Below are positions 29,486 to 31,677 of a stretch of 64,000 bases of DNA, piece after piece. How positions within the stretch are numbered: the first letter of the stretch is position 1; every line of letters starts with the position of its first letter. This DNA is from Escherichia coli (GTDB lineage Bacteria > Pseudomonadota > Gammaproteobacteria > Enterobacterales > Enterobacteriaceae): the NCBI RefSeq assembly GCF_003019035.1, contig NZ_CP027447.1; one strand, written 5' to 3'. Below the pieces are notes generated by a model, which was not told where the DNA came from, did not search any database, and worked only from the letters and a program-made list of their open reading frames with translations. Position numbers and translations under genes: made by a program.

Positions 29486-29752
29486 TTATTGCCTGGTTGA
29501 CGCTTCTGAATCGTAATGCACCACGCACTGCCAGTCGCTGCCCTGCTGGCAATATATCGCTTCGGTCTGCCCAGGGATCACCCATTGTATTTCCTCGCCG
29601 GGCAGACAGGTCAGCCAAATGCATAACCCGCAGCCGCCGCGTAAATCACGGGGAATATCGCTGACGCGAAAAGTCATGCCCGCTGCCTGCAACGCCTTAC
29701 GGGTTTGTATGACGCCGACCGTGGAGTGAAATAAAAATAAAAACTCTTTCAT
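29486..29752 (-). CDS. Small Cys-containing protein, DUF3343-like (putative S/Se-carrier-like)
   Basis: 88 aa; the pattern FLFLFHSTVGVIQTRKALQAAGMTFRVSDIPRDLRGGCGLCIW resembles DUF3343 proteins often encoded next to 2-hydroxyacyl-CoA-dehydratase-like genes. Its start overlaps the yjiL stop by 4 nt (translational coupling). Confidence 0.5.
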   Translation of the reverse strand: MKEFLFLFHSTVGVIQTRKALQAAGMTFRVSDIPRDLRGGCGLCIWLTCLPGEEIQWVIPGQTEAIYCQQGSDWQCVVHYDSEASTRQ

Positions 29753-30522
29753 CGGCGTTTTCTCACTCGTTGACCAATTACCGCTGCGCCAATTGCGCCA
29801 GCAAATTGCGCATCAGGATGGGTATTTACCGGCATTCCCAGATGAGATTCCAGCATCCGGGCAAACGTCTGGCAATGACTAACGCCACCAGTAAACAGAA
29901 TCGGCGCTTCACAGGAGAGACGATCAATGAAATTGGCACTCCGCCGCGCCATCGCGTTAATCACTCCGGCGAGAATCGCTTCTGGCGCGACGCCCGCTGA
30001 GCGCAGGCTGATCACTTCTGATTCGGCAAACACTGTGCACATACTCGTGATGGCGTGCGGTCTGACATTTTCAGTAATGCTGTCGAGTTGCTCGACGCTG
30101 GTGCCAAGCGTGCGCGAGATCAGCTCCAGGAAACGCCCGGTGCCCGCCGCGCATTTGTCATTCATCAGGAAATCGCACAGGTTACCGTCATCATCAAGCT
30201 GAATCACTTTGCTGTCCTGACCACCGATGTCGATTACTGCGCGCGTTGCTGGCGCAAGAAACCGTGCGCCTAGCCCGTGACAGGAGATTTCCGTCACCTG
30301 TTTATCGGCAAAATCCACCAGTTGCCGTCCGTAGCCGGTGAGCGTCAGAAACGGCGTTGTTTCTAACCCTTCGCGCAGAGTTTCCCAGGCTTCAGTAATT
30401 GCTGTTGCCGGGCGAAAGGGTGTTGGAACGAGGAAACGGCGCGTAATCACGCCGTCTGCCAGTAAGATCCCTTTGGTGGCGGTTGAGCCGGAATCAATGC
30501 CAATCGAATATGCCACTGCCAC
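29749..30522 (-). CDS. yjiL: BadF/BadG/BcrA/BcrD-type ATPase (activator of 2-hydroxyacyl-CoA dehydratase-like enzyme) YjiL
   Basis: 257 aa; N-terminal acetate/sugar-kinase-fold motif YSIGIDSGSTATKGILL; position downstream of yjiM as in K-12. Confidence 0.82.
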   Translation of the reverse strand: MAVAYSIGIDSGSTATKGILLADGVITRRFLVPTPFRPATAITEAWETLREGLETTPFLTLTGYGRQLVDFADKQVTEISCHGLGARFLAPATRAVIDIGGQDSKVIQLDDDGNLCDFLMNDKCAAGTGRFLELISRTLGTSVEQLDSITENVRPHAITSMCTVFAESEVISLRSAGVAPEAILAGVINAMARRSANFIDRLSCEAPILFTGGVSHCQTFARMLESHLGMPVNTHPDAQFAGAIGAAVIGQRVRKRR

Positions 30523-30525
30523 TCC

Positions 30526-31677
30526 TTACAGCATCTCAATAAAGGCCGCGACACGGGTGCTGAGCTGCCCGATATCTGAGGTGGAGTAGTCTGTTTCAAT
30601 AGCGATATAAGGAATGTTGTGCTGATGACGCACATGACGTTTAATCGCCAGCGATTCCACCGCGTAGGTATGGCACGCCTGCAAAATCACATCAACTACG
30701 CCATCGACCTGATATTCTTCAACCATCTGGCTGAGCATTTGCAGGCGCTGATCGTTCGGCGAAACACAGGAGCAGCCAATCGCCAGATATTTATCCGCCA
30801 GCGCGTCGTAGACATCGCCCGTTTCTGCCACGCATTGCTCGGTCGCTTTCGCCCCGGTGCAGTTTTCATAACCGACAACCCAGCCGCCATTCTCTTCAAT
30901 CGCGCGCACCACTTTTTCTGCTGCGCCGCCAATCGGGCAGCCGGTGATTAAAATGCGCGGACGCGGGTCCAGTCGCTGGCCTTCTTCCCACTGCTGACGA
31001 ACGCGGGCGGTCATTGCATCCAGTTCATTGATCAACGCCTCTTTATCGAACCGGAAGGTTGCGCCGTAAACCACTTTCAGAATGTCGCTGCCGCTAAGCG
31101 CCGGAGGATTTAACTGCCCCAAATGATAAAAGTTGGCCAGTGCGCGACGTTCGCGGTTTTTCAGCACAATGGCATCGCGCAGAGCATCTTCGCTAATCTC
31201 GTGCCCAAAACGTTCTTCTACCGTTTTTTGCAAGCGCAGCATCTCGGCTTTCCATAACGCGCGTGAGGCATCGTCCTTAACGCTGTTTGGCAGTTGCATC
31301 ACATGAACGGGCTTAAATTCCGCCATGTATTCATACATTTTCTTTTTGCCGTCGCAGGTGGTTTCACCCACCACCAGATCGGAAAAGTAGAAGTAGGGGC
31401 ATTTATCGGTTTTGCCGAAGCCGTAGCTGCTTTTAATCAGCGGGCAGAGATTACGCGGCAGGTCTTTTTCCGCTTCTTCAATGGTTTCATCAGAGGTGGA
31501 ACAGAGTGAAACCACAACCGCACCGGCTGCCATTGGGATCTCTTGCGGCATAAAAGTACAGTAGGTACCAACCAGCGGAATGCCGCGCTCCTTGAGATCC
31601 ATGACGGTGAGAAAGCCTTTCTGGCGAGCTTCAGAGAACTGATCGAAAATGGCGGGTAGATCGGTGACAAGTGACAT
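30526..31677 (-). CDS. yjiM: 2-hydroxyglutaryl-CoA dehydratase D-component-like protein YjiM
   Basis: Matches K-12 YjiM from MSLVTDLPAIFDQF...; start set at that Met (the track ORF has a 7-codon extension); Cys-rich (CTFMPQ, GCPIGG, GCSCV) as expected for the Fe-S dehydratase family. Confidence 0.82.
   Translation of the reverse strand: MSLVTDLPAIFDQFSEARQKGFLTVMDLKERGIPLVGTYCTFMPQEIPMAAGAVVVSLCSTSDETIEEAEKDLPRNLCPLIKSSYGFGKTDKCPYFYFSDLVVGETTCDGKKKMYEYMAEFKPVHVMQLPNSVKDDASRALWKAEMLRLQKTVEERFGHEISEDALRDAIVLKNRERRALANFYHLGQLNPPALSGSDILKVVYGATFRFDKEALINELDAMTARVRQQWEEGQRLDPRPRILITGCPIGGAAEKVVRAIEENGGWVVGYENCTGAKATEQCVAETGDVYDALADKYLAIGCSCVSPNDQRLQMLSQMVEEYQVDGVVDVILQACHTYAVESLAIKRHVRHQHNIPYIAIETDYSTSDIGQLSTRVAAFIEML

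What the first reader, a model, noticed from the sequence alone, without database searches (positions are those of the whole stretch)
29486..31677. Translationally coupled yjiM-yjiL-DUF3343 module: a radical dehydratase-like enzyme set of unknown substrate
yjiM (2-hydroxyacyl-CoA-dehydratase D-component-like, Cys-rich), yjiL (BadF/BcrAD-type ATPase activator) and an 88-aa Cys-containing DUF3343-like ORF are tightly packed: a 3-nt gap between yjiM and yjiL, and a 4-nt overlap between yjiL and the small ORF. This resembles ATP-dependent Fe-S dehydratase/reductase systems of strict anaerobes, yet its function in E. coli is unknown. The small third gene is easily missed by gene callers and may be the sulfur-carrier or electron-carrier partner.
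Basis: partly seen in the sequence, partly recalled or inferred. Interest (0 to 1): 0.4.

Follow-up and report, generated by a model that had tools for sequence, protein, structure and literature searches.

The report
Known anaerobic yjiM-yjiL-ytiA reductase operon
This is the already annotated E. coli yjiM-yjiL-ytiA operon, an oxygen-sensitive ATP-driven iron-sulfur reductase with a small cysteine carrier protein; its substrate is unknown, and gene neighbourhoods in other bacteria point to selenium or sulfur handling.

Summary
The three genes are real and lie on the minus strand at the stated coordinates. yjiM is 30526-31677, yjiL is 29749-30516 and the 88-aa ORF is 29486-29752.

The small ORF matches Pfam PF11823 (DUF3343, "Se/S carrier") at 48 bits against a cutoff of 25. 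It is under purifying selection (dN/dS about 0.1-0.25). It follows the activase gene in all seven testable gammaproteobacterial loci.

Two corrections apply:
- The conserved yjiL start is the second GTG, so the gap is 9 nt with an AAGGAG ribosome-binding site, not 3 nt.
- YjiM is not a dehydratase subunit. It meets the NCBIfam equivalog for double-cubane [8Fe-9S] reductases (DCCP), and YjiL is its ATPase reductase.

None of this is new. RefSeq annotates all three genes, the third as ytiA, in every complete E. coli genome row inspected. Reviews name YjiM as a DCCP. ChIP-seq work lists yjiML as directly FNR-activated.

My added result concerns the 72 closest non-gammaproteobacterial YjiM relatives. 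Twelve of them sit within 5 kb of DUF3343, YedF, YedE, SelD or an SclA-like desulfurase. About ten sit beside corrinoid methyltransferase clusters proposed for methyl-selenide recycling. A selenium or sulfur mobilisation role is therefore the best, still unproven, hypothesis.

The parts
30526..31677 (-). yjiM: double-cubane-cluster ([8Fe-9S]) protein, the catalytic reductase component (383 aa)
   Evidence: ORF. Pfam HGD-D 1.8e-121. NCBIfam NF040772 equivalog 530 bits against cutoff 350. PDB 6ENO DCCP E = 1e-74, with C40, C59, C78, C108, C273, C302/C304 and C335 aligned to its cysteines. The same cysteines are invariant or >=90% conserved in 36 diverse homologues.
29749..30516 (-). yjiL: BcrAD/BadFG-type ATPase, the DCCP reductase ('archerase'), 255 aa from the conserved GTG. 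The longest ORF starts at 30522.
   Evidence: Pfam BcrAD_BadFG 1.6e-75. TIGR00241 363 bits against cutoff 125. PDB 1HUX E = 8e-53 and DCCP-R 7YYL_E E = 4e-47, with both [4Fe-4S]-bridging cysteines (DKC, CTVFAESE) aligned. Start position conserved across genera and used by RefSeq.
29486..29752 (-). ytiA: 88-aa DUF3343 / putative Se/S carrier protein
   Evidence: Pfam PF11823 48.4 bits against cutoff 25. Annotated as ytiA / DUF3343 / 'putative Se/S carrier protein' in RefSeq. Orthologues occur across Enterobacterales. dN/dS 0.08-0.25. AF2 model pLDDT 89.6.
29630..29632 (-). Codon of YtiA Cys41, the only cysteine invariant across the DUF3343 family, in the motif P-x-P-R-x-L-x-x-G-C-G
   Evidence: C41 and G42 are invariant in 23 sequences from Gammaproteobacteria and Firmicutes. 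C44 of the local CGLC is replaced by S or A in Hafnia and Aeromonas. C41 lies on the beta2-beta3 loop in the model.
30517..30528 (-). yjiM stop / yjiL ribosome-binding junction, TAAGGAGTGGCA followed by GTG
   Evidence: Sequence. TA[AG]GGAG + 5 nt + GTG in six of the seven other gammaproteobacterial loci; C. youngae has TGAGAAA + 5 nt + ATG.
29749..29752 (-). ATGA overlap: yjiL stop TGA overlaps ytiA start ATG (translational coupling)
   Evidence: Sequence. Overlaps of 4, 1 or 11 nt occur in the other gammaproteobacterial loci.
31751..31764 (-). FNR-like site GCGAGAGAGATCAA (7 of 10 consensus positions), centred about -42 from the inferred transcription start
   Evidence: Scan. The ATCAA half-site is conserved at the same distance from the -10 element, and Citrobacter youngae has TTGTTGCACATCAA (9/10) there. 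yjiML is listed as directly FNR-activated by ChIP-seq plus expression in PMC3688515. The position relative to the start site is my inference.
31722..31727 (-). -10-like hexamer AATAAT (TATAAT in Citrobacter, Cedecea, Superficieibacter and the MAG)
   Evidence: Alignment by eye of upstream regions. Not picked up by the consensus promoter scan, which needs both hexamers, as expected for an activator-dependent promoter. Inferred, not shown.
31678..31704 (-). Conserved 5' leader with a small hairpin (CCCGT/ACGGG) abutting the yjiM Shine-Dalgarno sequence GGAAGGA
   Evidence: Nearly invariant in five genera. Hafnia carries a compensatory CCCGG/CCGGG. No Rfam match. Folding energy is not unusual, z = -0.47.

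Best explanation
The region is a three-gene operon, yjiM-yjiL-ytiA, activated by FNR under anaerobiosis.

Proposed mechanism:
- The YjiL homodimer, bridged by a [4Fe-4S] cluster, takes an electron from a low-potential donor. It uses ATP hydrolysis to inject that electron into the [8Fe-9S] double-cubane cluster of YjiM.
- YjiM then reduces a substrate that ordinary cellular reductants cannot reduce.
- YtiA is co-translated with YjiL through the ATGA overlap. It is a small ferredoxin-fold protein carrying one invariant cysteine (C41) on an exposed loop.
- Most likely YtiA carries a chalcogen, as a persulfide, perselenide or Se(0)-type adduct. It either presents this to YjiM for reductive release or accepts it from YjiM, so the module mobilises selenium (or sulfur) for SelD-dependent pathways.

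Shown here: the family memberships, conserved cluster ligands, gene order and coupling, purifying selection, and clustering of orthologues with selenium genes.

Taken from the literature: FNR activation, ATP-coupled electron transfer in the homologous DCCP/DCCP-R pair, and the SelD co-occurrence of the family.

Inferred: that YtiA interacts with YjiM, that the cargo is Se or S, and the direction of transfer.
For: - Family assignment: NF040772 equivalog 530 bits against cutoff 350 and TIGR00241 363 against 125; PF11823 48 against 25.
- YjiM aligns to the solved DCCP 6ENO at E = 1e-74 with its cluster cysteines conserved. YjiL aligns to HgdC 1HUX and DCCP-R 7YYL with the bridging cysteines conserved.
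- The trio keeps the same order with overlapping or abutting stop and start codons in 7 of 7 testable gammaproteobacterial loci, while the flanking genes differ: yjiN lies upstream in only four of the seven.
- ytiA has dN/dS of about 0.1-0.25. C41 and G42 are invariant across Gammaproteobacteria and Firmicutes.
- Among the 72 closest non-gammaproteobacterial YjiM relatives (49-66% identity), the activase is adjacent in 34, DUF3343 lies within 5 kb in 10, an EF2568/SclA-like class-V desulfurase in 9, YedF (TIGR03527) in 6, SelD directly upstream in 1 and YedE (TIGR04112) in 1. Twelve loci have at least one of these and nine have two or more.
- Example operons: DCCP-activase-desulfurase-DUF3343-YedF (L080) and desulfurase-YedF-DUF3343-DCCP-activase (L052).
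- Three loci place DUF3343 between a DCCP paralogue and the activase (L027, L051, L069).
- About ten further loci carry MtaA-like / corrinoid / RACo genes. This is the cluster type for which PMC10418091 proposes methyl-selenide recycling, and that paper lists DCCP/DCCP-R as putative selenium genes.
- Haft and Gwadz report that 955 of 970 NF040772 proteins are encoded in SelD-containing genomes.
- Lin et al. 2015 link DUF3343 by STRING to Sec lyase, YedF and 'CoA-substrate-specific enzyme activase'.
- yjiML is directly FNR-activated according to PMC3688515, and an FNR-like site is conserved upstream.
Against: - No experiment links any of the three E. coli proteins to selenium or sulfur. The physiological substrate of every DCCP is unknown.
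- Sixty of the 72 non-gammaproteobacterial orthologue loci have no Se/S gene within 5 kb, and 62 have no DUF3343. The carrier is therefore not obligatory for the enzyme.
- Lin et al. found no selenium-specific DUF3343 subfamily, and the family also occurs in SelD-lacking organisms.
- The window itself has no SelD, YedE, YedF or desulfurase.
- Reducing a persulfide or perselenide does not obviously need an ATP-boosted, very low-potential electron.
- I had no control set of random loci. The enrichment is judged against the expectation for single-copy genes, not measured.
- The Dobbek review favours a CoA ester or other large substrate for YjiM, because it lacks the channel-closing N-terminal helices.
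Confidence: 0.5

Rival explanations
1. One reading: a 2-hydroxyacyl-CoA-dehydratase- or benzoyl-CoA-reductase-like ketyl-radical enzyme acting on a CoA thioester or similar organic acid. YjiL would serve as a one-shot activator and YtiA as an unrelated accessory.
For: - Pfam places YjiM in HGD-D. It shares the fold with HadC, BzdN and MbdN (E = 1e-13 to 1e-18).
- The Dobbek review notes that YjiM lacks the N-terminal channel-closing helices of DCCP_Ch, so a CoA ester or other larger substrate is conceivable. The alignment starts at residue 62 of 6ENO.
Against: - Scores are far below the dehydratase and BCR equivalog cutoffs: HadC 94 against 700, HadB 18 against 750, BzdN 78 against 454.
- There is no second HGD-D-type subunit in the window, whereas those enzymes are heteromeric.
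- The cysteine set is the DCCP pattern, not the 3-Cys [4Fe-4S] pattern.
- No CoA-transferase, ligase or acyl-CoA dehydrogenase is among the recurrent neighbour families I annotated in the 80 orthologue loci.
Confidence: 0.15
2. YtiA is a maturation factor rather than a substrate carrier. It would deliver the extra bridging sulfide (or, as Haft raised as a formal possibility, a selenide) needed to fuse two cubanes into the double-cubane cluster of YjiM, or it would repair that cluster.
For: - The carrier gene is tightly coupled to the enzyme genes.
- Orthologue loci co-cluster with cysteine desulfurase / Sec-lyase-like enzymes and YedF, which are typical S/Se donors.
- The family co-occurs with SelD, and the authors list a role for Se in the cofactor itself as a formal possibility.
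Against: - DCCP_Ch assembled its [8Fe-9S] cluster and was crystallised after heterologous production with no DUF3343 partner mentioned.
- Most orthologue loci lack DUF3343 nearby.
- A dedicated maturase would be expected to track the enzyme more faithfully.
Confidence: 0.15
3. YjiM/YjiL reduces a small inorganic or xenobiotic molecule, in analogy with the acetylene, azide and hydrazine reduction shown for DCCP_Ch. This would be an anaerobic detoxification or scavenging activity. YtiA would be a PII-like regulatory or protective subunit, not a carrier.
For: - In vitro activities of the homologue are described.
- The only structural neighbours of the YtiA model are PII/GlnK proteins (TM about 0.5, best E = 0.027).
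- The operon is co-regulated by FNR with nitrite and NO-handling genes.
Against: - The fold match is weak and not significant (no hit at E <= 0.001).
- The strictly invariant cysteine on the loop argues for covalent chemistry rather than nucleotide sensing.
- No nitrogen-oxide genes recur in the orthologue neighbourhoods.
Confidence: 0.15
4. YtiA is the electron carrier that feeds YjiL or YjiM, as a small Fe-S or thiol-redox protein.
For: - Enterobacterial YtiA has a CGLC (CxxC) motif plus C49.
- The system needs a low-potential donor, and none is encoded nearby.
Against: - The second cysteine of the CxxC is S or A in Hafnia and Aeromonas and is not conserved in most Firmicutes members. Only C41 is invariant.
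- There is no ferredoxin, flavodoxin or thioredoxin family match.
- Thiol-disulfide chemistry is far too positive in potential to drive an archerase.
Confidence: 0.03

Closest known systems
DCCP / DCCP-R of Carboxydothermus hydrogenoformans (CHY_0487 / CHY_0488; PDB 6ENO, 7YYL)
   Same: - Same family by the NCBIfam equivalog NF040772.
- E = 1e-74 to 6ENO, with all aligned cluster cysteines conserved.
- The adjacent ATPase is homologous to DCCP-R (E = 4e-47 to 7YYL_E).
- Two-component, ATP-driven electron injection is expected.
   Different: - YjiM is about 36 residues shorter at the N-terminus, so it lacks the channel-closing helices. The Dobbek review calls this 'class II'.
- The E. coli operon carries a translationally coupled DUF3343 gene, which the two DCCP papers I read do not mention for the C. 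hydrogenoformans pair.
- The host is a facultative anaerobe and the operon is under FNR control.
2-hydroxyacyl-CoA dehydratases with their activators (HgdAB/HgdC, HadBC/HadI) and class I benzoyl-CoA reductases
   Same: - Same superfamily fold for the catalytic subunit (Pfam HGD-D).
- Same activator family, with the bridging [4Fe-4S] cysteines conserved.
   Different: - Those enzymes are heteromeric (alpha/beta, or four subunits) and use [4Fe-4S] clusters with CoA-ester substrates.
- YjiM is a single subunit with the DCCP cysteine set.
- YjiM scores 7- to 40-fold below the curated cutoffs of those families.
Firmicutes selenium-trafficking clusters (SelD, YedE, YedF, SclA/EF2568-type desulfurase, DUF3343) described by Lin et al. 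2015, and the type I mlp / DCCP clusters of PMC10418091
   Same: They contain orthologues of all three E. coli proteins in one locus. Examples are L080 (DCCP-activase-desulfurase-DUF3343-YedF), L052, L079 with YedE, and L029 with SelD.
   Different: - The E. coli and other gammaproteobacterial version is stripped down to three genes.
- There is no desulfurase, YedF, YedE, SelD or methyltransferase in the 64-kb window.
- Any selenium link would have to work in trans.
TusA / YedF-type sulfur (selenium) carrier proteins
   Same: Small size, a single essential cysteine, and genomic association with desulfurases and selenium genes.
   Different: - YtiA is an unrelated family. It matches PF11823, not PF01206.
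- Its cysteine lies in a P-x-P-R-x-L-x-x-G-C-G loop between strands 2 and 3 of a ferredoxin-like fold, rather than in the CPxP motif at a helix N-terminus.
- No solved structure of any homologue was found.

Membership tests
Double-cubane cluster protein (DCCP; NCBIfam NF040772) | Whole-protein score above the curated equivalog cutoff | tested here: met
   530.1 bits against a cutoff of 350, covering profile positions 1-372 of 372.
Double-cubane cluster protein (DCCP; NCBIfam NF040772) | Conserved seven-cysteine set that ligates or flanks the [8Fe-9S] cluster | tested here: met
   C40, C59, C78, C108, C273, C302/C304 and C335 align with cysteines of 6ENO. They are invariant or >=90% conserved in 36 homologues. 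The published regular expression with its literal spacings did not match. The YjiM spacings are X18-X18-X29-X164-X30-X30, and the N-terminal spacings are the same in the aligned 6ENO sequence, so the mismatch is at least partly one of counting.
Double-cubane cluster protein (DCCP; NCBIfam NF040772) | Partner ATPase (DCCP-R) encoded alongside, with no second HGD-D-type subunit | tested here: met
   yjiL starts 9 nt downstream. There is only one HGD-D ORF in the 64-kb window. The activase is adjacent in 34 of 72 distant orthologue loci, and activase-DCCP fusions exist.
Double-cubane cluster protein (DCCP; NCBIfam NF040772) | Actual [8Fe-9S] cluster and ATP-dependent reduction of substrates | not testable with these tools
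   Needs anaerobic purification, spectroscopy or crystallography, and activity assays. No such data for YjiM appeared in the papers I searched.
2-hydroxyacyl-CoA dehydratase (HadBC / HgdAB) | Two distinct subunits (alpha and beta), each reaching the family score | tested here: not met
   HadC model 93.6 bits against cutoff 700 and HadB model 18.1 against 750. There is no partner subunit gene.
Class I benzoyl-CoA reductase (BcrABCD / BzdNOPQ) | Four-subunit enzyme with catalytic subunits above the family cutoff | tested here: not met
   BzdN 77.7 bits against cutoff 453.8, BcrC 57.5 against 421 and BcrB 23.7 against 487. Only one ATPase gene and one catalytic gene are present.
Acyl-CoA dehydratase activase / archerase (TIGR00241, Pfam PF01869) | Score above the cutoff, and the two cysteines that bridge the dimer [4Fe-4S] cluster | tested here: met
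   363.1 bits against a cutoff of 125.4. The NDKC and CTVFAESE cysteines align with C127 and C166 of HgdC 1HUX.
DUF3343 / Se_S_carrier (Pfam PF11823) | Score above the gathering threshold, and the family's conserved cysteine | tested here: met
   48.4 bits against a cutoff of 25. C41-G42 are invariant in 23 sequences spanning two phyla, matching the single conserved Cys reported by Lin et al. 2015.
DUF3343 / Se_S_carrier (Pfam PF11823) | Actual binding or transfer of sulfur or selenium | not testable with these tools
   The family name rests on comparative genomics only. No solved structure or biochemical study was found.

The most novel reading that the evidence does not exclude
The yjiM-yjiL-ytiA cassette could be an ATP-powered selenium-mobilising reductase. 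In this reading YtiA C41 carries Se, as a perselenide, Se(0) or an organoselenium-derived adduct. The double-cubane enzyme reduces it at very low potential to release selenide for SelD. This would be the missing anaerobic route by which E. coli and many gut anaerobes supply selenide to selenoprotein and selenouridine synthesis. A variant reading is that YtiA delivers a selenium atom into the double-cubane cofactor itself.
Probability: 0.25. Interest if true: 0.75.

Novelty: already known. Interest (0 to 1): 0.3.

Why it matters
No double-cubane enzyme has a known physiological substrate. The source of selenide for SelD in bacteria is also still unclear. E. coli carries the simplest version of the module, three genes under FNR control, in a genetically tractable host.

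If the selenium or sulfur link inferred from neighbourhoods in Firmicutes holds, E. coli would be the obvious organism in which to settle both questions. As a genome-scan finding, though, it adds nothing to current annotation. The genes, their families and the 'Se/S carrier' label are already in RefSeq.

Tried and rejected
- The literal published 7-Cys regular expression did not match YjiM. Alignment to 6ENO showed that the cysteines are all present, so I rejected 'motif absent'.
- A sequence search of YtiA against PDB found nothing meaningful (best E = 0.012, to LolB). A Foldseek search of a confident model gave only weak PII/GlnK similarity (no hit at E <= 0.001), so no function could be drawn from structure.
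- I looked for DUF3343 fused to DCCP or the activase among ten long homologues. I found activase-DCCP fusions and a PucR-HTH fusion, but no DUF3343 fusion.
- I asked whether DUF3343 goes with short 'class II' DCCPs that have an open active site. It does not. In L027, L051 and L069 it follows long (419-453 aa) paralogues.
- I looked for an RNA element in the conserved yjiM leader. There was no Rfam hit and the folding energy was ordinary.
- The promoter and terminator consensus scan gave no more sites than shuffled sequence and no terminator after ytiA.
- A relaxed HMM search (E up to 50, filters off) for further, divergent DUF3343 ORFs in the 80 loci found none beyond the 20 clear hits.
- The word-indexed protein search with YtiA reached only Enterobacterales. 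Distant members came from the locus scan instead.
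Full report
**What is in the sequence**

On the minus strand of the window there are three consecutive ORFs:
- 30526-31677: 383 aa from the ATG that RefSeq also uses.
- 29749-30522: 257 aa as the longest ORF.
- 29486-29752: 88 aa.

These limits match the finding's coordinates exactly.

| Protein | Library and model | Result |
|---|---|---|
| YjiM | Pfam HGD-D | E = 1.8e-121 |
| YjiM | NCBIfam NF040772, double-cubane anaerobic reductase (equivalog) | 530 bits, cutoff 350 |
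| YjiM | NCBIfam HadC / HadB / BzdN | 94, 18, 78 bits; cutoffs 700, 750, 454 |
| YjiL | Pfam BcrAD_BadFG | E = 1.6e-75 |
| YjiL | NCBIfam TIGR00241, activase domain | 363 bits, cutoff 125 |
| 88-aa ORF | Pfam PF11823 Se_S_carrier (old DUF3343) | 48.4 bits, cutoff 25, residues 4-59 |

YjiM is therefore a double-cubane cluster protein (DCCP), not a dehydratase D-component in the strict sense.

**Junctions**

The yjiM/yjiL junction reads TAAGGAGTGGCAGTG. The first GTG directly abuts GGAG and cannot use it as a ribosome-binding site. The second GTG (30516) lies 5 nt after AAGGAG.

In six of the seven other gammaproteobacterial loci the junction reads TA[AG]GGAG, then 5 nt, then GTG (TAAGGAG in five, TAGGGAG in Superficieibacter). 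C. youngae has a degenerate TGAGAAA and an ATG at that position. These loci are E. coli SCPM-O-B-8794, Superficieibacter, Citrobacter, Cedecea, Hafnia, Aeromonas and a soil MAG. The first GTG is absent from all of them. RefSeq also annotates a 255-aa YjiL. The gap is therefore 9 nt, not 3, and the yjiM stop codon sits inside the yjiL Shine-Dalgarno sequence. The tight coupling stands.

**Is the small ORF a real gene?**

Yes, on four grounds:
- Orthologues with the Pfam domain occur in Escherichia, Citrobacter, Klebsiella, Raoultella, Kosakonia, Phytobacter and Atlantibacter, and in Hafnia and Aeromonas.
- Pairwise Nei-Gojobori dN/dS over the domain is 0.08-0.25 between genera whose synonymous sites are saturated.
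- The motif D-I-P-R-x-L-R-G-G-C-G-L-C is invariant in 14 Enterobacteriaceae sequences.
- Across 23 sequences that include Firmicutes members, only F8, C41 and G42 are invariant and P34 nearly so. The second cysteine of the local CxxC is S or A in Hafnia and Aeromonas.

An AlphaFold2 model (pLDDT 89.6) gives a ferredoxin-like beta-alpha-beta-beta-alpha-beta-beta domain with C41 on the long beta2-beta3 loop. Foldseek against PDB finds only weak PII/GlnK similarity (TM about 0.5, best E = 0.027). A sequence search of PDB finds nothing.

**Is it new?** No.

- A megablast against 5,426 complete E. coli genomes finds the locus in 5,386, and at 80% or more coverage in 5,321. In every one of the 24 sampled rows that cover it, PGAP annotates yjiM ('double-cubane-cluster-containing anaerobic reductase'), yjiL, and the small gene. 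The small gene is usually named ytiA, with product 'DUF3343 domain-containing protein' or 'putative Se/S carrier protein'. The claim that gene callers miss it is not borne out.
- The Jeoung/Dobbek review names YjiM as a probable DCCP with the seven-Cys motif, paired with YjiL. It proposes YjiM as 'class II' because it lacks the N-terminal channel-closing helices. My alignment to 6ENO starts at residue 62 of the solved protein, which fits this.
- The physiological function of all DCCPs is stated to be unknown.
- Myers et al. 2013 list yjiML among operons directly activated by FNR, from ChIP-seq plus expression. Two expression studies agree.
- Upstream of yjiM I find GCGAGAGAGATCAA (31751-31764), 23 nt before a -10-like AATAAT. 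The ATCAA half-site keeps this position in other genera, and Citrobacter youngae has TTGTTGCACATCAA, a 9/10 match to the FNR consensus. By my count the site is centred near -42, typical of class II FNR promoters. The transcription start itself is inferred.

I aligned 36 diverse YjiM homologues from an exhaustive HMMER search. I used that alignment to fetch the 80 closest loci from one genome per GTDB species. I then called ORFs and searched them with phmmer and an iterated DUF3343 HMM. Hits to that HMM are cleanly separated from noise, at 80 bits or more against 10 bits or less.

In Gammaproteobacteria the order DCCP-activase-DUF3343 is present in 7 of 7 loci that extend far enough. The activase/DUF3343 overlaps are 4, 1 or 11 nt. 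The flanking genes differ: yjiN is upstream in only four of the seven. The trio behaves as a cassette.

The 72 remaining loci are mostly Clostridia and Lachnospiraceae, with some Lactobacillales and Coriobacteriia, at 49-66% identity to YjiM. Within 5 kb of the DCCP gene:

| Neighbour | Loci (of 72) |
|---|---|
| Activase adjacent | 34 |
| DUF3343 | 10 |
| EF2568/SclA-like class-V desulfurase (TIGR01977) | 9 |
| YedF (TIGR03527) | 6 |
| SelD (TIGR00476), immediately upstream (L029) | 1 |
| YedE (TIGR04112; L079) | 1 |
| At least one of the Se/S genes above (activase not counted) | 12 |
| Two or more of them | 9 |

Typical operons are DCCP-activase-desulfurase-DUF3343-YedF (L080) and desulfurase-YedF-DUF3343-DCCP-activase (L052). 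In three loci DUF3343 sits between a longer DCCP paralogue and the activase.

About ten loci carry MtaA-like methyltransferases, a corrinoid protein and a RACo-type activator. This is the 'type I mlp cluster' for which PMC10418091 proposes methyl-selenide recycling. That paper already labels DCCP/DCCP-R as putative selenium genes.

These numbers fit two earlier reports:
- Haft and Gwadz found 955 of 970 NF040772 proteins encoded in SelD-containing genomes.
- Lin et al. 2015 linked DUF3343, YedF and YedE by STRING to a 'CoA-substrate-specific enzyme activase' and a '2-hydroxyglutaryl-CoA dehydratase subunit'.

No paper in the library contains both 'double-cubane' and 'DUF3343'. Joining the two threads for the E. 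coli trio is a small synthesis, not a discovery.

**Mechanism**

The part resting on solved homologues is as follows. A YjiL dimer bridged by a [4Fe-4S] cluster couples ATP hydrolysis to electron injection into the [8Fe-9S] cluster of YjiM, which then reduces a refractory substrate. The bridging cysteines of YjiL are conserved, as are the cluster cysteines of YjiM. The mechanism is described in PMC9351452.

The inferred part concerns YtiA, which is made in step with YjiL through the ATGA overlap. I propose that it carries a chalcogen on C41 and exchanges it with YjiM, so that the module mobilises selenium or sulfur.

I put about 0.85 on the two-component reductase description. I put about 0.4 on the Se/S-carrier coupling, and much less on any specific chemistry.

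Against the selenium idea:
- Most orthologue loci have no Se/S genes nearby.
- There is no Se-specific DUF3343 clade.
- No Se gene lies in this window.
- I had no random-locus control.
- There is no obvious thermodynamic need for an ATP-boosted electron.

The rivals are a CoA-ester radical enzyme, YtiA as a cofactor-maturation donor, a small-molecule reductase with a PII-like regulator, and YtiA as an electron carrier. Each is listed with its own test.

**Verdict**

The object is an already annotated, already discussed operon whose function remains open. The interpretation needs updating from 'dehydratase-like' to 'double-cubane reductase'. The most useful lead is the recurring physical link to selenium-handling genes in other phyla.

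Noticed in passing
window 27000-29500 (gene 27200-29173, minus strand): A low-GC island (33-39% GC, against about 55% in yjiML) carries a 657-aa pentapeptide-repeat protein related to the T3SS effector EspX6. It sits between ytiA and yjiK. It is absent from K-12-like E. coli, where ytiA is followed directly by yjiK. O157-like strains have a 733-aa espX6 at this position.
   Followed up: partly
window 29486-29545 (3' end of ytiA): The haplotype break associated with the island lies inside ytiA. From about codon 70 onward, the 88-aa allele (this window, O157-like strains) and the 85-aa allele (K-12-like strains) diverge sharply. Most E. coli genomes match the window only from 29542 onward. The Pfam domain (residues 4-59) is unaffected.
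   Followed up: partly
window 31678-31704, minus strand (5' leader of yjiM): The leader CTCCCGTGGTACGGGGAAGGAAAATC is almost invariant across Escherichia, Superficieibacter, Citrobacter, Cedecea and a soil MAG, although synonymous sites between them are saturated. It contains a small hairpin (CCCGT/ACGGG) abutting the ribosome-binding site. Hafnia has the compensatory CCCGG/CCGGG. There is no Rfam match and the folding energy is unremarkable (z = -0.47). It may be a translational control element.
   Followed up: partly
window 29100-31800: This stretch is only 95-97% identical to most of the 5,386 E. coli genomes that carry it. It is 99% or more identical to just two, the best being strain E7-1N7 from an agricultural environment. 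The window therefore comes from an uncommon lineage at this locus.
   Followed up: no
L081 5001-7142, L082 4986-7154 (uncultured Dorea); protein P0122: These are ORFs of 713-722 aa in which a full YjiM-like DCCP domain is followed by a PucR-type C-terminal helix-turn-helix domain. They could be a DCCP-regulator fusion or a missed stop codon.
   Followed up: partly
L028, L034, L036, L042, L056, L062, L066, L069, L077: YjiM orthologues in these Firmicutes loci lie beside MtaA-like (URO-D family) methyltransferases, B12-binding corrinoid proteins and RACo-type reductive activators. Two different ATP-driven reductive activators are thus encoded in one neighbourhood.
   Followed up: partly
window 26092-27081, minus strand (yjiK): The longest ORF for the SdiA-regulated-domain protein is 329 aa. 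RefSeq annotates 280-286 aa in related strains, so the true start is probably internal to the ORF listed here.
   Followed up: no
window 34814-35770, plus strand: An intact 318-aa Rpn-family recombination-promoting nuclease / putative transposase gene lies downstream of mdtM. The O157-like comparison strain carries it as a frameshifted pseudogene.
   Followed up: no
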